From Acidobacteriota bacterium (lineage in GTDB: Bacteria; Acidobacteriota; Vicinamibacteria; Vicinamibacterales; 2-12-FULL-66-21), in NCBI GenBank assembly GCA_013813355.1, contig JACCRT010000015.1:1328-65327 (forward strand): a DNA stretch of 64,000 bases, given 5' to 3'. Below the pieces are notes generated by a model. The model made no database searches. It saw nothing but the letters and a program-made list of their open reading frames with translations, and had not been told where the DNA came from. Shown here piece by piece: positions 18,982-62,666 of this stretch. Made by a program: the position numbers and the translations under genes. Positions within the stretch are counted from its first letter, which is position 1. Each line of letters starts with the position of its first letter.

Positions 18982-19044
18982 CTTCAACCTTCAACCTTCA
19001 ACCTTCAACCTTCAACCTTCAACCTTCAACCTTCAGCCTTCAGC
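18982..19044. repeat. heptanucleotide tandem array (CTTCAAC)x7 (CTTCAGC)x2
   Basis: Read directly: nine perfect 7-nt units lie between the TPR gene start and the ECF promoter. Confidence 0.95.
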
Positions 19045-19053
19045 CTTTCTTGT

Positions 19054-32345: not shown

Positions 32346-33139
32346 TGTCGCGGCTTGACGGCTCGTTCGCACGCATTCGGGCACAGGGCGGGCCGGGTCT
32401 CGTGACCTACGTCACCGCTGGCGACCCCGATGCGGCGACGTCCGTGCGGATCCTCGTGGCGATCGCGAGGGCGGGCGCCGACGTGCTCGAGGTCGGGGTA
32501 CCGTTCTCGGACCCGCTCGCCGATGGTCCGGTCATCCAGCGCGCCAGCGAGCGGGCGCTCGCGTCGGGCATGACGCTGGCGGGGGCGCTCGACGTGGTTC
32601 GCGCCGTCCGGCGCGAAGTGGACACACCGATCGTCCTCTTTACCTACGCCAACCCGGTCGTGCGGATGGACGCCTCCGTGTTCGCCCGCTCGGCACGAGA
32701 CGCGGGCGTGGACGGCGTGCTCATCCTCGATCATCCGATCGAAGAGGCGGAGCCGCTGCGGAGCCTGCTGGTCGAGGCCGGCGTCGATCCGATCTTCCTG
32801 GTCAGCCCGACGACCAGCGATGAGAGGATTCGACGGTCAGCCGAGCTGGGCCGCGGGTTCCTCTACGTGATCTCGCGACTCGGCATCACCGGCGTCAGCG
32901 ACCAGGTGGCGAGCGGCGCCGCCGGCCTCGTCACCCGCGTCCGCGCCGGTGCTGCGGGGTTGCCAATCGCTCTCGGCTTCGGCATCTCGCGACCGGAACA
33001 CGTGCTGGAGGCATGCGCGACGGCGGACGCGGCGGTCGTCGGCAGTGCCCTGGTCAGCGTTATCGCGGCGCACGGTTCGGCAGCCGATGTCGACGCGCGC
33101 GCAGCCGGGTTCGTCCGGTGGCTGAAAGGGACGGCATGA
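32345..33139 (+). CDS. trpA: tryptophan synthase alpha chain
   Basis: FSDPLADGPVIQ motif. One-nt overlap with trpB. Confidence 0.95.
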   Translation: MSRLDGSFARIRAQGGPGLVTYVTAGDPDAATSVRILVAIARAGADVLEVGVPFSDPLADGPVIQRASERALASGMTLAGALDVVRAVRREVDTPIVLFTYANPVVRMDASVFARSARDAGVDGVLILDHPIEEAEPLRSLLVEAGVDPIFLVSPTTSDERIRRSAELGRGFLYVISRLGITGVSDQVASGAAGLVTRVRAGAAGLPIALGFGISRPEHVLEACATADAAVVGSALVSVIAAHGSAADVDARAAGFVRWLKGTA

Positions 33140-33435
33140 GCCGCCGGCTCGACGATCTGCGCCGCAGCATGGACGAGATCGACGCGCAGCTGGTCGAGCT
33201 GCTGAGCGCCAGGGCCACCTGCGCGCTCGAGATCGGACAGGTCAAGAAGCAATGCGGCATGCCGGTGTATCAACCCGCCCGTGAAAGCGACGTCCTGGCC
33301 CACGTGCAGCGGATCAACCAGGGGCCGCTCGACGACGGGGCCGTGAAGCGGCTCTTCGAGCGGATCATCGATGAGGCTCGACGCCTGGAGCGACTCGCGG
33401 AGGCAGGGCAGGGAGAGCCGGAGCCTCCACGCTAG
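33136..33435 (+). CDS. chorismate mutase (AroQ class, monofunctional)
   Basis: LRRSMDEIDAQLVELLSARA helix, typical of AroQ. ATG 33136 overlaps the trpA stop as ATGA. Confidence 0.85.
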   Translation: MSRRLDDLRRSMDEIDAQLVELLSARATCALEIGQVKKQCGMPVYQPARESDVLAHVQRINQGPLDDGAVKRLFERIIDEARRLERLAEAGQGEPEPPR

Positions 33436-33598
33436 TCCCCTCGGAAGCGTCATGCGTTGCCTACGTCCCGGAGCGCGGCGCCCGGATCGCCAGGCGCGAC
33501 GACCGCGCATAGTGGGCCTCTGTAGGGGAGGAGCAACGCCGCGAGCCGGGATGCCCCGCCCGGGACGTATGTGACGCATCACGTTTCCAGGGGACTAG
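33432..33598. other. 167-nt long-stem inverted-repeat element (structured RNA or MITE-like)
   Basis: The arms 33432-33471 and 33560-33598 pair over about 39 bp, with 2 mismatches, 1 bulge and 3 G-U pairs. The termini are CTAGTCCCCT and AGGGGACTAG. An 88-nt GC-rich apical part contains sub-hairpins. Confidence 0.6.
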
Positions 33599-33713
33599 AA
33601 TAGACACGACGACACGCGGATTTTGAACGGATTCGACAGGGGACGGAATCACACGGCAGCCGCTGCGGCGTGCTGCGAACGGTCAGCTGCCTGCTTCAAG
33701 AGCGATAATTTTT

Positions 33714-34760
33714 ATGGTTGTGGTCATGCAGGAGCGCGCGACGGACGAGCAGATCCAGAGTGTCATCGCGCAGCTCGTGGGGATGGGATTCGACGTGCAC
33801 CGGTCCACGGGGTCGCTGCGGACCGTGATCGGTGCAGTCGGGCCGACAACAGGCGACCCTCGCCTCGTGGAGATGCTCGACGGGGTGAAGGAAGTGTTGC
33901 GGATTACGGAGCCTTACAAGCTGGCCAGCCGCACGTTCCGGCCCGAGAACACCGTAATCACGATCGGCGACGTCCGGATCGGCGGGGACGAAGTGATCGT
34001 CATGGCGGGCCCGTGCTCGGCAGAGAGCGAGGAACAGGTCGAAGCCAGCGCGGCGGCCGTGCGGCGCGCCGGCGCGAAGATCCTCCGCGGCGGGGCGTAC
34101 AAGCCGCGAAGCTCGCCGTACAGCTTCCAGGGGCTCGGCGAGGACGGCCTGCGGCTGCTGCGCGGCGCCGCCGATCGCCACAACCTGAAGCTGGTCTCGG
34201 AGGTGATGGATATCAGCCAGCTCGAGACGATCCTGCGCTATGCCGATATCCTGCAGGTCGGCGCCCGCAACATGCAGAACTTCACGCTGCTGCGCGAACT
34301 GGGTCGCACCCGGAAGCCGGTGCTGCTCAAGCGCGGCATCTCGGCGACTATCGAGGAGTGGCTCCTCTCGGCCGAGTACATCCTGGCCGGCGGGAACGCC
34401 GACGTCATGCTATGCGAGCGAGGCATCCGAACGTTCGAAAGCTACACGCGCAACACGCTCGACATCTCGGCGATCCCCGTCGTCCAGAAACTGAGCCACC
34501 TCCCGGTCCTTGTCGATCCCAGCCACGGCACCGGGCGCCGCGACAAGGTCGCCCCGATGGCCCGCGCCGCCGTCGCGGCCGGCGCCGACGGCCTGCTCAT
34601 CGAGGTGCACTGCGATCCTGACCACGCGCTCAGCGACGGTGCACAGTCGCTGTTCCCCTCCCAGTTCGATCGCCTGATGGCCGAGCTCCGGATCATCGCC
34701 CCGGCGATCGGTCGCAGTATCTGCCTCGAGCCCGTGGCTCGCCGCGGCTGGGGAACGTAG
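33714..34760 (+). CDS. aroF: 3-deoxy-7-phosphoheptulonate (DAHP) synthase, class I-beta with N-terminal regulatory (ferredoxin-like) domain
   Basis: N-terminal ~70-aa domain ([21 protein letters not shown]...) followed by a catalytic barrel with [13 protein letters not shown]. Confidence 0.9.
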
Positions 34761-51982: not shown

Positions 51983-52024
51983 GCAGCAGGCAGCGGGCAG
52001 CGGGCAGTAGGCAGTAGGCAGTAG
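51983..52024. repeat. heptanucleotide tandem array GCAGCAG (GCAGCGG)x2 (GCAGTAG)x3
   Basis: Read directly. The array begins at the base after the TGA stop of the upstream gene and ends 19 nt before the recG ATG. Confidence 0.9.
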
Positions 52025-52042
52025 GGCAGACGCCTCTTTGCC

Positions 52043-58119: not shown

Positions 58120-58213
58120 AACAGGAGATCAGGAGGTCAGGAGATCGTCGTTATCCAGAAGATTGGTATCCAGGAAAAACCCCATCAGTCTCCTGATCTC
58201 TTGATCTCCTGTT
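58120..58213. repeat. long hairpin built from CAGGAGRT octads (26-bp stem, 42-nt loop) between convergent genes
   Basis: The left arm AACAGGAGATCAGGAGGTCAGGAGAT (58120-58145) pairs with GTCTCCTGATCTCTTGATCTCCTGTT (58188-58213), using 3 G-U pairs. Confidence 0.85.
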
Positions 58214-60484: not shown

Positions 60485-61264
60485 ATGCTCAAGGTGACGG
60501 CCGTTGCACTTCTCGCCATTCTCTCGCTTTCGCCGCCGCAGTCACGAGATGCCGAGATCGAGGCGCTCAAGCGCGAGGTCGCGGCGCTCAGAGCACAGCA
60601 GGAAGGGATGGCCCGCGATCTCCAGGCCATCAAGCAGCTCCTGCAATCCCTCATGCAACCGGCGCCTTCGCCGGGCAACGAAATGCCGGGCCTTGTCGGC
60701 GCATCGATCGCGCCATCCCAGCGCGCACCGCTCGGTGCCGCGTCCGCGCGGGTGATGATTCTCGAGATCTCCGACTACCACTGCGGTTTCTGCCGCCGCC
60801 ACACGCAGCAGACGTTTCCACGAATCTACGAGCAGTACGTGAAAACGGGGCAGGCGCAGTACGGCTTCGTGGACTTCCCGATCACGCAGGCGCCCCAGGT
60901 CGGCTTCAAGCCCCACGAGGCGGCCCTGTGCGCCGGCGAGCAGGGTAAAGCGTGGGAAATGCACACGCAGCTGTTCGGAGGCTCCCCCGCGAGCACCACC
61001 GAGGCGCTCGTGGCCAAGGCGTCAGCGATTGGTCTGAACACATCAGCGTTTACGACGTGCCTGAATAGCGGCAAGTACACAGCCGCCATCCAGGAGAGCG
61101 TCGGCGCCGTGCAGCGCCTCGGTGTCGGCGGTACGCCGATGACGCTCATCGGCTTGACGCCCGAGCCCGGGCAGCCTATGAAGGTCGCAAAGTTCGTGTA
61201 CGGCGCCCACCCGTTCGAAGCCTTCAAGGAGGCGATCGACGAGGTCCTGGCCGAAGCGCGGTGA
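60485..61264 (+). CDS. DsbA-family thiol:disulfide oxidoreductase (exported, coiled-coil N-terminal part)
   Basis: Thioredoxin-fold active site CGFC and a signal-like N-terminus. Confidence 0.85.
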   Translation: MLKVTAVALLAILSLSPPQSRDAEIEALKREVAALRAQQEGMARDLQAIKQLLQSLMQPAPSPGNEMPGLVGASIAPSQRAPLGAASARVMILEISDYHCGFCRRHTQQTFPRIYEQYVKTGQAQYGFVDFPITQAPQVGFKPHEAALCAGEQGKAWEMHTQLFGGSPASTTEALVAKASAIGLNTSAFTTCLNSGKYTAAIQESVGAVQRLGVGGTPMTLIGLTPEPGQPMKVAKFVYGAHPFEAFKEAIDEVLAEAR

Positions 61265-61524
61265 CTCTGGGCTCGTCGAAGCGCAGCCACTGGGGCTTAC
61301 AAGAGATCAGGAGTTCAGGAGCTTTCTTTTTTCTGAGTCTCGATTAGAAGTCCTCCAAAGTTCGTGTACGGCGCCCACCCGTTCGAAGCCTTCAAGGAGG
61401 CGATCGACGAGGTCCTGGCCGAAGCGCGGTGACTCTGGGCTCGTCGAAGGGCAGCCACTGGGGCTTACAAGAGATCAGGAGTTTAGGAGCTTTCTTTTTT
61501 CTGAGTCTCGATTAGAAGTCCTCC
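61189..61524. repeat. tandem duplication, 2 x 168 bp (61189-61356 and 61357-61524), with 2 mismatches seen
   Basis: Direct comparison shows differences only at GAAGCGCAG vs GAAGGGCAG and GAGTTCAGG vs GAGTTTAGG. Copy 1 starts inside the DsbA-like gene, and copy 2 ends inside the last codons of the radical SAM gene. Confidence 0.9.
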
Positions 61525-62666
61525 TGATCTCCTGATCTCCTGATCTCCTGTAAAGACACCCGCCGCGAGCCGGGCAGAAATGGCGACGAGGCGATCTGGC
61601 CGTCGAAGCGATCAGCCCACCGGCCGGGGATAGTCGTCCCGCAGTCCGGGCATGCGCCTCCAGGCGTCAGCCGGTAATCCTGGACGAAGTAGCCGTAGCG
61701 CTCGACGAGCCGGGCCCGGCAGTGGTGGCAGTGCGTGTGTTCCAGGTCCCCAACCTGCCCGGGGAGGTTGCCGGCATAGACATAGCGCAACCCGTTCCTC
61801 TGGCCGATCTCCGCTGCACGGACGAGCATGTCGGGCGTGGTATTCTCCGGGTCGTTCATCCGGTAGTCCTTGTGAAAGGCCGTGACGTGCCAGGGGATGT
61901 CGGGTGACACGCCCGCGACGAAGGCCGTCATGCGCTCGATCTCATCGGCCGAATCGTTGAACCCCGGGATGAGCAGCGTCACGAGCTCCAGCCAGATGCC
62001 CATCTCGTGCAGCGCGCGGATGGTGTAGAGGATCGGCTCCAGCCGTCCGCCGAGCGACCGGTAATGCCGATCGTCGAAGCTCTTGAGATCCACCTTGTAG
62101 AGGTCAACCCACGGCTGGATGTACTCGAGCACCCGCGCCGTACCGTTGCCGTTCGACACGTACGCCGTCATCAAGCCTGCCGCGCGCGCCTCCTTGAAGA
62201 TCGCCACCCCCCATTCACTGGTTATGAGCGGCTCGTTGTAAGTGGACACGACGATGCGGCTGCCGAGGCGGAGGGCTTCAGCGACGAGCGCCGCGGGATC
62301 GGCGTCGAGCGGCGGAGAGACCGCGTGCGGGTCGCGCAACGCCTGCGACGTGACCCAGTTCTGGCAGTAGGAACAATGGAGGTCGCAGCCCAGCATCCCG
62401 AAGCTGAAGGCGAGCGCGCCCGGACGCGCGTGAAAGAACGGCTTCTTTTCGACCGGATCGCACTGCACGCCGCCCACGTAGCCCCAGGGGACCTGGAGCG
62501 TGCCGCCGCGATTGAACCGCACCCTGCAGACGCCCACCGCGCCATCGGGAATGGGACACTCGTGCCCGCACGCATAGCACCGGAGGCGGTCCTTCGAGAT
62601 CGCCTCGACGAGCTCCGCCGCCGCCGGGACGGTGCGAGCTTGGAGGATATCGGACAGCGTCGGCAT
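61512..62666 (-). CDS. AmmeMemoRadiSam-system-type radical SAM enzyme
   Basis: CDLHCSYCQNW (CxxxCxxC), N-terminal Cys cluster RCYACGHECPIPDGAVGVCRVR, and C-terminal CPDCGTTIPGRW. Confidence 0.8.
   Translation of the reverse strand: MPTLSDILQARTVPAAAELVEAISKDRLRCYACGHECPIPDGAVGVCRVRFNRGGTLQVPWGYVGGVQCDPVEKKPFFHARPGALAFSFGMLGCDLHCSYCQNWVTSQALRDPHAVSPPLDADPAALVAEALRLGSRIVVSTYNEPLITSEWGVAIFKEARAAGLMTAYVSNGNGTARVLEYIQPWVDLYKVDLKSFDDRHYRSLGGRLEPILYTIRALHEMGIWLELVTLLIPGFNDSADEIERMTAFVAGVSPDIPWHVTAFHKDYRMNDPENTTPDMLVRAAEIGQRNGLRYVYAGNLPGQVGDLEHTHCHHCRARLVERYGYFVQDYRLTPGGACPDCGTTIPGRWADRFDGQIASSPFLPGSRRVSLQEIRRSGDQEDF
61521..61551. repeat. octanucleotide tandem array (CTCCTGAT)x3 CTCCTGT
   Basis: Read directly. 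It is complementary to the GAGATCAGGAGTTCAGGAG arms at 61303-61321 and 61471-61489, and it encodes the C-terminal tail of the radical SAM ORF. Confidence 0.9.

What the first reader, a model, noticed from the sequence alone, without database searches (positions are those of the whole stretch)
33432..33598. 167-nt long-stem inverted-repeat element between chorismate mutase and DAHP synthase
The element starts at the base before the chorismate mutase TAG stop codon. Its arms, 33432-33471 and 33560-33598, pair over about 39 bp with 2 mismatches, 1 bulged C and 3 G-U pairs. Its termini are CTAGTCCCCT and AGGGGACTAG. The 88-nt apical part is GC-rich and has its own small hairpins, for example GCGCG-ACGAC-CGCGC at 33494-33508. 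No T-tract follows, so it is not an ordinary terminator. It sits inside an otherwise tightly coupled operon. Possible roles, all inferred, are an RNase III processing or stability element that uncouples expression of the trp genes from aroF-tyrA, a cis-regulatory RNA for the DAHP synthase gene, an unannotated small RNA, or a MITE-like insertion with terminal inverted repeats.
Basis: seen in the sequence. Interest (0 to 1): 0.55.

Follow-up and report, generated by a model that had tools for sequence, protein, structure and literature searches.

The report
Mobile hairpin repeat at stop codon
The 167-nt hairpin is one copy of a small mobile DNA repeat found many times in this group of soil bacteria; it landed exactly on the stop codon of the chorismate mutase gene and rebuilt that codon, so it is a recent insertion rather than an evolved regulatory RNA.

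Summary
Bases 33432-33598 form a very stable hairpin (RNA MFE -112.8 kcal/mol, z = -9.8) between chorismate mutase and DAHP synthase.

It is a 161-nt miniature inverted-repeat transposable element (MITE), 33435-33595, flanked by a duplicated TA (33433-34 and 33596-97).
- Orthologous operons of close relatives lack it exactly. They read ...TAG-AATAG..., and the window reads ...TA-[element]-TA-GAATAG....
- An arm pattern found at least 118 loci in about 43 mostly Vicinamibacterales/Acidobacteriota genomes, and at least 120 metagenome contigs.
- I recovered 75 complete copies. Their modal length is 160 nt, and the window copy is 87% identical to the consensus.
- The target is CTAG in 57 of 63 copies. 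About 43% of copies sit on a gene's stop codon, where TA plus the element's first G rebuilds TAG.

The cis-regulatory RNA and small-RNA readings are not supported. Any effect of the hairpin on the operon mRNA is untested.

One family-level point is unexplained. The hairpin, its 160-nt length and purine-rich internal loops are kept by compensatory changes, on one strand only. Orientation relative to genes is nevertheless random, and no parent transposase was found.

Verdict: a new member of a known kind, of modest interest.

The parts
33136..33435 (+). Chorismate mutase gene (99 aa). Its start overlaps the trpA stop. Its stop codon TAG (33433-33435) is made of the left TA copy plus the first base of the element.
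   Evidence: Pfam CM_2, E = 1e-24. Gene call in the near-identical contig L001. Sequence.
33433..33434 (.). Left copy of the duplicated target dinucleotide TA. The preceding C33432 is the 5' base of the CTAG target.
   Evidence: Flank statistics: C-TA on the left in 68 of 74 copies. Comparison with the empty site in relatives.
33435..33595 (+). MITE body, 161 nt (family mode 160 nt; this copy has one extra C at 33442). It lies in the orientation in which the family folds best.
   Evidence: It is 87.0% identical to the 160-nt family consensus and 90.7% to the nearest copy, L097.
33435..33471 (+). Left terminal inverted repeat and arm. The outer 19 nt (consensus GTCCCCTGGAAnCGTGATG) are conserved in all subfamilies.
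33490..33540 (+). Apical domain. It holds the conserved CAAGGCG-like motif (CCAGGCG here), purine-rich tandem G.A loops, the YGGGC loop and GAGCAACGCC. In this copy the third G.A loop and one apical pair are degraded.
33560..33595 (+). Right terminal inverted repeat and arm (...CATCACGTTTCCAGGGGAC).
33596..33597 (.). Right copy of the duplicated TA. Together with G33598 it is the original CM stop codon TAG, followed by the ancestral AATAG.
   Evidence: Relatives read GAG-TAG-AATAG at the CM end. TA-G on the right in 70 of 74 copies.
33598..33713 (+). Ancestral CM-DAHP synthase spacer (about 115 nt). It is not part of the element and has no significant structure.
   Evidence: z = +0.38. No promoter-like or terminator-like site. 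Relatives have spacers of 53-143 nt.
33714..34760 (+). DAHP synthase gene (ferredoxin-like domain plus DAHP_synth_1), downstream of the insertion.
   Evidence: Pfam. Gene call.

Best explanation
The element is a resident copy of a non-autonomous transposon (MITE) family of Vicinamibacterales (Acidobacteriota).

Inferred mechanism of mobility: a DDE transposase supplied in trans recognises the conserved outer 19-25 nt of the two inverted ends and cuts the element out. It then integrates the element at the TA of a CTAG site and duplicates that TA, as IS630/Tc1-mariner elements do.

Shown for this locus: the target was the C-TAG stop codon of chorismate mutase. Because the element begins with G, the left TA plus that G rebuilds TAG, so the protein is unchanged. 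The old stop codon now lies downstream of the element, and the CM-DAHP synthase spacer grew from about 115 to 278 nt.

Inferred consequence: the operon transcript now carries a -113 kcal/mol hairpin whose base contains the CM stop codon. This hairpin may alter mRNA processing, stability or read-through into aroF-tyrA, but as a side effect only. This copy shows neutral decay rather than maintenance.
For: 1. Precise presence or absence.
- Relatives with 91-92% identical DAHP synthase and the same gene order have CM-DAHP synthase gaps of 53 and 77 nt. They read ...GAG-TAG-AATAG... where the window reads ...CGC-TA-[161 nt]-TA-GAATAG....
- The closest relatives (94% identity) have gaps of 137 and 143 nt, too short to hold the element.
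- A 99.4% identical assembly carries an identical copy.

2. Many dispersed copies.
- A filtered pattern hit at least 120 metagenome contigs. Many contigs end inside the repeat, as expected where an assembly breaks at a repeat.

3. Copy properties. Of 75 complete copies, 58 are 160 nt long, and median identity to the consensus is 90.6%.

4. Target duplication and specificity.
- TA is present on both sides in 64 of 75 copies.
- The reconstructed target is CTAG in 57 of 63 copies, although CTAG makes up only 3.3% of TA sites in these loci.

5. Location. Only 3 of 75 copies lie inside predicted genes.

6. Stop-codon insertion.
- 33 gene ends in 32 of the 75 copies use TA plus the element's G as their stop codon, exactly as here.
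- Unoccupied CTAG sites fall at stop codons in 43 of 181 cases, so this largely follows from target choice.

7. No sign of local function.
- Orientation relative to the hit gene is random: 13 sense, 15 antisense.
- Variant pair states private to one copy break pairing in 52 of 74 cases. The window copy has such changes at C33451 and C33461, plus a degraded apical G.A loop.

8. Literature. IS630-family elements duplicate TA, and IS630 prefers TA within CTAG (PMC2170065 and the Tenzen 1990 and 1991 papers cited there). RUP is an IS630-type MITE (PMC2229807).
Against: - No autonomous element with matching ends was found. There are no arm pairs 300-4000 nt apart in the genome loci. ORFs next to solo arms are ordinary genes. 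The one long arm pair (L205) is a MITE interrupted by an unrelated ISAzo13-family IS.
- tblastn with an IS630 transposase sequence recalled from memory found nothing in 1.69 Mb of held DNA. This is only a weak negative.
- Because CTAG is palindromic, a 4-bp CTAG duplication (IS5 type) gives the same sequence as a TA duplication with G...C element ends. The case for TA rests on the inner G and C being invariant (75 of 75 and 74 of 75) while the outer C and G vary.
- Classical cut-and-paste needs only the terminal repeats. It does not explain why the whole hairpin is conserved on one strand.
- Transcription across the element, and any effect on the operon, were not measured.
Confidence: 0.9

Rival explanations
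1. It is an evolved cis-acting RNA element of the trp-aro operon, either an RNase III processing or stability site or a leader for DAHP synthase, kept because it uncouples expression of the two operon halves.
For: It is a very stable hairpin inside a tightly packed operon. Co-transcribed MITE hairpins are reported to affect mRNA through RNase III (Correia) or RNase E (ERIC) (PMC2229807).
Against: It is absent from all orthologous operons examined. It is one of more than 100 copies at unrelated loci. Orientation relative to genes is random. This copy carries private changes that break pairs. There is no Rfam match. The rest of the spacer is unstructured.
Confidence: 0.05
2. It is a MITE of the same kind but mobilised by an IS5-family (or IS427-type) transposase that duplicates the 4-bp target CTAG. 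The element would then be 159 nt (TCCCCT...AGGGGA).
For: Both flanks read CTAG in 57 of 63 copies. An IS5-related MITE, MITEPsy1, inserts at CTAG or YTAA and duplicates it (PMC3189936). The sequence cannot formally separate the two models.
Against: In the six non-CTAG cases only the outermost base differs (TTAG on one side, CTAG on the other), while the inner G and C are invariant (75 of 75 and 74 of 75). This fits TA duplication at a YTAR site better than identical 4-bp duplications. No IS5-like partner was seen.
Confidence: 0.2
3. It is a structured-nucleic-acid mobile element. The single-stranded hairpin itself (ssDNA or RNA of one strand) would be the substrate or cofactor of mobilisation, rather than a passive remnant of an IS.
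For: - 97.5% of stem cells are paired, and 19 pairs show double changes, against about 40% paired in slid controls.
- All 66 copies fold better on the same strand, with mean MFE -110 versus -98 kcal/mol.
- The tandem G.A loops are near-invariant and are flanked by covarying Watson-Crick pairs.
- Four subfamilies share only the outer 19 nt, yet all are exactly 160 nt and keep the same apical motifs.
- Variant pair states shared by several copies keep pairing in 29 of 33 cases, while private ones break it in 52 of 74.
Against: It has perfect terminal inverted repeats and a TA duplication at a palindromic target, the hallmarks of dsDNA DDE cut-and-paste. There is no orientation bias relative to transcription or local GC skew. 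Whole-length palindromy and compensatory change are also reported for other bacterial MITE-like repeats (ERIC in PMC2229807; bcr1 from my own recollection). Related copies can inflate covariation counts.
Confidence: 0.15
4. It is an intrinsic (U-tract-less) transcription terminator that separates the trp-CM genes from aroF-tyrA.
For: It is a GC-rich long hairpin directly after a stop codon.
Against: No T-tract follows and the terminator scan is negative. No promoter-like site lies downstream to re-start transcription of aroF. Relatives have no hairpin there. Half of the family copies lie antisense to the upstream gene.
Confidence: 0.05

Closest known systems
RUP (repeat unit of pneumococcus), mobilised by IS630-Spn1
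   Same: It is a short, non-coding, multi-copy element with terminal inverted repeats that inserts at TA. It is the standard example of a bacterial IS630-type MITE (PMC2229807).
   Different: RUP is 107 bp and occurs in a Firmicute. Its ends match a known IS, whereas no partner IS was found here. The strong CTAG preference, the 160-nt whole-length hairpin and the frequent stop-codon insertion are not described for RUP.
IS630 (Shigella sonnei) and ISY100: the IS630/Tc1-mariner family
   Same: They duplicate TA, and IS630 prefers the TA within 5'-CTAG-3' (PMC2170065, citing Tenzen 1990 and 1991). This is the same target as in 57 of 63 copies here.
   Different: These are autonomous elements of about 1.1-1.2 kb that encode a transposase. 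The window element has no ORF, and its sequence relationship to any IS630 member is untested.
Correia / NEMIS elements of Neisseria
   Same: They are 100-155 bp with inverted ends and TA at the termini. They are often co-transcribed with neighbouring genes as long RNA hairpins, which are proposed RNase III substrates (PMC2229807).
   Different: The sequence and the phylum differ. Correia elements carry an IHF site and promoter elements, and none was detected here. RNA processing is untested here.
ERIC / IRU (RU-1) and YPAL (RU-2) of enterobacteria
   Same: They are whole-length imperfect palindromes of 127-168 bp that are co-transcribed and fold into long stem-loops. ERIC has TA at its termini and affects mRNA stability depending on its orientation (PMC2229807).
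   Different: Their terminal repeats are much shorter (7 bp). They have no CTAG specificity. They occur in a different phylum.
MITEPsy1 of Pseudomonas syringae (IS5-related)
   Same: It inserts at CTAG (or YTAA), so it has CTAG on both sides (PMC3189936).
   Different: It is 100 nt with 18-nt GGAAGG-type ends and a 4-bp duplication. Here the pattern of variation in the flanks favours a 2-bp duplication.

Membership tests
Bacterial MITE (miniature inverted-repeat transposable element) | Short (under about 300 bp), with no coding capacity | tested here: met
   161 nt here, and 160 nt in 58 of 75 copies. Only spurious ORFs overlap it.
Bacterial MITE (miniature inverted-repeat transposable element) | Terminal inverted repeats | tested here: met
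   The outer 19 nt or more (GTCCCCTGGAAnCGTGATG) are inverted at both ends and conserved across subfamilies.
Bacterial MITE (miniature inverted-repeat transposable element) | Target-site duplication flanking the copies | tested here: met
   TA on both sides in 64 of 75 copies. The partner arm was found without requiring TA.
Bacterial MITE (miniature inverted-repeat transposable element) | Many dispersed copies per genome | tested here: met
At least 120 metagenome contigs.
Bacterial MITE (miniature inverted-repeat transposable element) | Filled versus empty orthologous sites (evidence of insertion) | tested here: met
   An empty site TAG-AATAG in L002 and L004, against TA-[element]-TA-GAATAG in the window. 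Gap sizes in closer relatives agree.
Bacterial MITE (miniature inverted-repeat transposable element) | An autonomous IS with matching ends that supplies the transposase | tested here: not met
   None was found in 1.69 Mb of held loci. The search was limited, so this is absence of evidence. Many accepted MITE families also lack a known partner.
IS630/Tc1-mariner-type element | 2-bp TA duplication at the insertion site | tested here: inconclusive
   The data are compatible and favoured: the inner G and C are invariant while the outer C and G vary. A 4-bp CTAG duplication gives the same sequence at CTAG targets.
IS630/Tc1-mariner-type element | Ends bound by an IS630-family (DDE, HTH-HTH) transposase | not testable with these tools
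   No cognate transposase was identified.
Conserved cis-regulatory RNA (riboswitch, leader or attenuator) | Conserved at the orthologous position upstream of the regulated gene | tested here: not met
   Absent in L002-L006 and in the loci encoding P0002 and P0003.
Conserved cis-regulatory RNA (riboswitch, leader or attenuator) | Match to a curated RNA family | tested here: not met
   No Rfam hit at gathering score. Only chance-level matches to plant miRNA-precursor families at E = 0.06-0.4.
Intrinsic terminator | GC-rich hairpin followed directly by a U-tract | tested here: not met
   The hairpin is followed by TAGAATAGACACG, and the scan found 0 sites.
REP/BIME (RAYT-associated) repeats | 20-40-nt palindromes with a GTAG or CGTC head, no TIR or TSD | tested here: not met
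   The element is 160 nt with 19 nt or more of terminal inverted repeat and a TA duplication. Family definition taken from PMC3733652 (abstract).
Correia/ERIC-like post-transcriptional modulators (works-like comparison) | Co-transcribed hairpin cleaved by RNase III or RNase E, changing the stability of neighbouring mRNA | not testable with these tools
   Only the predicted fold within mRNA context is available.

The most novel reading that the evidence does not exclude
The 160-nt family may be more than a decayed remnant of an insertion sequence. It could be a mobile structured module defined on one strand.

Its features are a fixed 160-nt length, purine-rich G.A internal loops, a YGGGC apical loop and conserved CAAGGCG and GCAACGC motifs. 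All of these are kept by compensatory evolution in the lineages that propagate, across subfamilies that share only the outer 19 nt.

In that case the folded single strand (ssDNA or RNA) would itself be the substrate, guide or cofactor of mobilisation. That would be a different mechanism from classical TIR-only, double-strand cut-and-paste. Insertion at CTAG stop codons, which rebuilds the stop codon, would be its way of landing harmlessly in compact genomes.
Probability: 0.15. Interest if true: 0.7.

Novelty: new member of a known kind. Interest (0 to 1): 0.35.

Why it matters
For this window, the result removes a false lead. The hairpin is a recent mobile insertion, not a conserved regulator of aromatic amino-acid genes.

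More broadly, it documents what appears to be an undescribed, abundant MITE family in Vicinamibacterales, a dominant but poorly studied group of soil Acidobacteriota.
- I found no paper describing it.
- The family explains contig breaks in metagenome assemblies.
- It provides a lineage marker.
- It shows how a CTAG-targeting element whose first base is G can sit on stop codons without changing the protein.

The structural conservation on one strand is a small open question about how such elements propagate.

Tried and rejected
- **Second copy in the window or in L001:** none found by blastn-short or by pattern search with mismatches.
- **Plasmid collection:** no match. **Viral contigs:** 0 matches.
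- **Rfam:** nothing at gathering score, and permissive searches of the window copy and four representative copies gave only chance-level matches to plant miRNA precursors.
- **Promoter and terminator scans of 33000-34000:** none found.
- **Structured leader in the remaining spacer, 33598-33725:** rejected, z = +0.38.
- **Parent IS:**
  - There are no arm pairs 300-4000 nt apart in the genome loci.
  - ORFs next to solo arms look like ordinary transporter, enzyme and secretin genes rather than transposases. I judged this by reading the translations and did not scan them.
  - The only long arm pair (L205, 1464 nt) is a MITE copy interrupted by an ISAzo13-family IS.
  - tblastn with an IS630 transposase sequence written from memory found nothing. 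This was a lead only, not evidence.
- **Orientation bias:** none relative to flanking genes or to local GC skew.
- **Other classes considered and rejected on anatomy:**
  - Integron attC sites: the element has no GTTRRRY cores and the copies are dispersed rather than arrayed.
  - IS200/IS605-type PATEs: those lack terminal inverted repeats and target duplications.
  - REP/BIME repeats: wrong length and wrong head sequence.
  - C/D-box-like reading of GTGATGA in the arm: coincidence.
Full report
**Observation**

- The chorismate mutase (CM) stop codon TAG is at 33433-33435.
- The termini are CTAGTCCCCT and AGGGGACTAG.
- Two arms of about 37 nt pair with two mismatches and one bulged C.
- The apex is GC-rich, and no T-tract follows.

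As RNA the segment folds into one long hairpin. MFE is -112.8 kcal/mol against -71.9 ± 4.2 for dinucleotide shuffles (z = -9.8, 0 of 200 shuffles as stable). The same hairpin forms when 381 nt of surrounding mRNA are folded.

The context is an aromatic amino-acid operon:
- trpC, trpF, trpB and trpA;
- CM (33136-33435, its start overlapping the trpA stop);
- a 278-nt gap;
- DAHP synthase (33714-34760);
- prephenate dehydrogenase;
- an acetyl-CoA-synthetase-like gene.

The organism is a Vicinamibacterales-type acidobacterium. The nearest homologues are labelled Acidobacteria or Vicinamibacterales MAGs. One public assembly (GCA_965610645.1, held as locus L001) is 99.4% identical over 21 kb and carries an identical copy of the element.

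**Is it conserved at this locus? No**

Relatives whose DAHP synthase is 91-92% identical have the same gene order, but their CM-DAHP synthase gaps are only 53 nt (L002, L003) and 77 nt (L004-L006).
- In the alignment, the relatives read ...GAG-TAG-AATAG(A/G)G... directly after CM.
- The window reads ...CGC-TA-[GTCCCCT...161 nt...AGGGGAC]-TA-GAATAGACACG.
- Removing the element and one TA restores CGC-TAG-AATAG, which is the ancestral junction.
- The two closest relatives (94% identity) have gaps of 137 and 143 nt. The window has 115 nt once the 163-nt insertion is removed, so they cannot contain the element.

This is the footprint of a precise insertion at a TA dinucleotide with duplication of that TA. 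The remaining spacer, 33598-33713, has no significant structure (z = +0.38) and no promoter-like or terminator-like site.

**Is it repeated elsewhere? Yes, massively**

There is no second copy in the window or in L001.

I scanned one genome per bacterial species with the arm pattern TAGTCCCCTN{0,1}GGAANCGTNATG.
- Most come from Vicinamibacterales, Vicinamibacteria or Acidobacteriota MAGs, about 43 assemblies in all, with up to 11 loci per assembly.
- From these loci I extracted 75 elements with both arms. Of these, 58 are exactly 160 nt long.
- The window copy (33435-33595, 161 nt because of one extra C) is 87% identical to the 160-nt consensus. The median for all copies is 90.6%.

A second scan, of JGI metagenomes, was filtered to exclude this subfamily. 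Many of them end inside the repeat, which is typical where an assembly breaks at a multi-copy element. Viral contigs and plasmids gave nothing.

**Insertion-site anatomy**

- TA flanks both ends in 64 of 75 copies.
- The base before the left TA is C in 68 of 74 copies. The base after the right TA is G in 70 of 74.
- The reconstructed target is therefore CTAG in 57 of 63 copies, TTAG in 4 and CTAA in 2. CTAG makes up only 3.3% of the TA sites in the same loci.

Because CTAG is a palindrome, a 2-bp TA duplication with G...C as the element's end bases and a 4-bp CTAG duplication give the same sequence. The pattern of variation favours the 2-bp model, but not decisively. The inner G and C are invariant (75 of 75 and 74 of 75), while the outer C and G and the TA itself vary. 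In the six non-CTAG cases only the outermost base on one side differs.

TA duplication with a preference for CTAG is the documented behaviour of IS630 (PMC2170065, citing Tenzen et al. 1990 and 1991). An IS5-related MITE that duplicates CTAG also exists (MITEPsy1, PMC3189936), so that family remains a rival for the source of the transposase.

**Stop-codon insertion**

In 32 of the 75 copies (33 gene ends) a GC3-supported ORF ends exactly with the TA of the duplication plus the first G of the element. On the other strand the equivalent is the last C of the element. This is the arrangement seen at CM.
- Since the element starts with G, insertion into a C-TAG stop codon rebuilds TAG and leaves the protein unchanged.
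- Among CTAG sites not occupied by an element in the same loci, 43 of 181 are at predicted stop codons, 35 lie inside genes and 103 are intergenic.
- The association with stop codons is therefore mostly a consequence of target choice, combined with purging of insertions inside genes. Only 3 of 75 copies lie inside predicted genes.

**What the family looks like**

Within the window's subfamily the whole element is one hairpin, and it is maintained by compensatory change.
- Across 52 consensus pairs, 97.5% of cells form standard pairs. In controls with the partner slid by 1-3 columns the figure is 36-46%.
- 19 pairs show changes on both sides, amounting to 273 cells. The covariation score is 0.253, against 0.05 or less in the slid controls and 0.088 in shuffles.
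- Covariation extends well beyond the terminal repeats into the apex. Examples are columns 66-96 (CG 35, AU 19, GC 9), 69-93 (GC 32, CG 28) and 74-88 (CG 35, AU 17, GC 9).

Between these covarying pairs lie three near-invariant 5'-GA-3'/3'-AG-5' loops, at A2 columns 64-65/97-98, 67-68/94-95 and 71-72/90-91. The apical loop is YGGGC. These purine-purine loops exist on one strand only. In line with that, all 66 copies fold better as RNA in the same orientation, with a mean of -110 versus -98 kcal/mol. The window copy lies in that orientation on the + strand.

The metagenome scan revealed at least three further subfamilies (for example L151, L176 and L126).
- They share only the outer 19 nt with the window's subfamily (95-100% identity there). 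The interior is about 30-65% identical in an ungapped comparison.
- Each is nevertheless exactly 160 nt long.
- Each keeps CAAGGCG ... a YGGGC-type apical loop (CGGGC in L176, CUGCG predicted in L126) ... GCAACGC in the same places and has purine-rich internal loops.
- Miniature versions made only of the two terminal repeats also occur, for example the 48-nt copy in L169.

**Where does the constraint act?**

- Variant pair states shared by three or more copies keep pairing in 29 of 33 cases, and 20 of those are double changes.
- Variant states private to a single copy break pairing in 52 of 74 cases.

The structure is therefore preserved in the lineages that propagate, while resident copies decay. 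The window copy fits this picture. Relative to its nearest relative (L097, 90.7% identity) it has private C-C and C-U mismatches at 33451 and 33461, the extra C at 33442 and a degraded third G.A loop.

Orientation is random with respect to the gene whose stop codon is hit (13 sense, 15 antisense), with respect to tandem gene pairs (7 and 8), and with respect to local GC skew.

Taken together, the data give no sign that host genes have recruited the hairpin as a regulatory RNA. There is also no support for function at this particular locus.

**Mechanism**

Shown:
- precise insertion at the TA of a CTAG;
- duplication of the TA;
- regeneration of the CM stop codon;
- enlargement of the spacer;
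- many copies, with filled and empty orthologous sites.

Inferred:
- mobilisation in trans by a DDE transposase, most likely of the IS630/Tc1-mariner type, that binds the conserved outer 19-25 nt;
- co-transcription with the operon, so that the mRNA carries a very stable hairpin whose base includes the CM stop codon.

By analogy with Correia and ERIC elements (PMC2229807), the hairpin could be cut by a double-strand-specific RNase, could protect upstream mRNA from 3' exonucleases, or could reduce read-through into aroF-tyrA. None of this was measured. The lack of a U-tract argues against a canonical terminator.

**What remains unexplained**

No autonomous element with these ends was found.
- No arm pairs lie 300-4000 nt apart in the genome loci.
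- ORFs beside solo arms look like ordinary genes rather than transposases, judged by reading the translations.
- The single long arm pair (L205 3971-5434) is a MITE copy with an ISAzo13-family IS nested inside it (Pfam DDE_Tnp_ISAZ013, E = 7e-134).
- A tblastn with an IS630 transposase sequence recalled from memory found nothing in 1.69 Mb. This is a weak negative.

A cut-and-paste element needs only its ends. The conservation of the whole hairpin on one strand, of its exact length and of the G.A loops is therefore not accounted for. It may reflect a cruciform or single-stranded transposition substrate, a host-factor binding site, or an RNA or ssDNA role. I give this more novel reading about 15%.

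**Comparison with known families, and verdict**

The element meets every testable defining feature of a bacterial MITE except a known partner IS. It fails the tests for a conserved cis-regulatory RNA, an intrinsic terminator and REP/BIME repeats.

Its closest analogues are:
- RUP with IS630-Spn1 (TA target, IS630 type);
- IS630 itself (CTAG preference);
- Correia and ERIC elements (co-transcribed long hairpins with TA termini).

I found no description of this family in the searchable literature. I therefore classify it as a new member of a known kind. The specific finding, a hairpin in the trp-aro operon, is an ordinary and probably near-neutral MITE insertion. The family-level features make it modestly interesting: CTAG stop-codon targeting that regenerates the stop codon, and compensatory maintenance of a 160-nt hairpin on one strand.

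Noticed in passing
window 18982-19047; 61521-61550; 58121-58146; 51983-52025; also L004 8481-8557: There are short-period tandem repeats in intergenic DNA: the heptamer CTTCAAC x9.4, the octamer CTCCTGAT x3.8 with inverted relatives about 3.4 kb away, and GCAGCAG x6. The CM-DAHP synthase spacer of a relative is built of CAGCTGA-like repeats. Such repeats seem common in this lineage.
   Followed up: no
window 61188-61524: A 168-nt unit is duplicated in tandem at 98-99% identity. The unit appears to include the 3' end of a coding region (...AEAR-stop) and the sequence downstream of it.
   Followed up: no
L205 3971-5434 (metagenome contig Ga0210380_10000015): A copy of the 160-nt MITE is split by a nested insertion of about 1.3 kb. 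The insert is an ISAzo13-family IS encoding a 404-aa transposase (Pfam DDE_Tnp_ISAZ013, E = 7e-134). It is not the MITE's parent.
   Followed up: yes
L064, L065, L071, L088, L100, L109 (labelled Bifidobacteriaceae); L016 (Chloroflexia); L074 (Polyangiales); L121 (Gemmatimonadaceae): MAGs labelled as unrelated phyla carry the Vicinamibacterales MITE arm, and several carry full copies. This suggests mis-binned or mislabelled contigs, or less likely horizontal transfer. The repeat could serve as a marker of contamination.
   Followed up: no
L126-L245 (for example L138 1794-1940, L151 12422-12581, L176 1112-1271, L126 1753-1912, L169 3034-3081): There are sibling subfamilies with the same outer 19 nt but different interiors. 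Most are exactly 160 nt. There are also deletion derivatives of 147, 109 and 48 nt. One soil metagenome (JGI12210J13797) has dozens of contigs that end inside the repeat.
   Followed up: partly
L007 5808-7199: In one relative the gene caller fused CM and DAHP synthase into a single 463-aa product. That contig shows many fragmented genes, so frameshift errors in the assembly are more likely than a real fusion.
   Followed up: no
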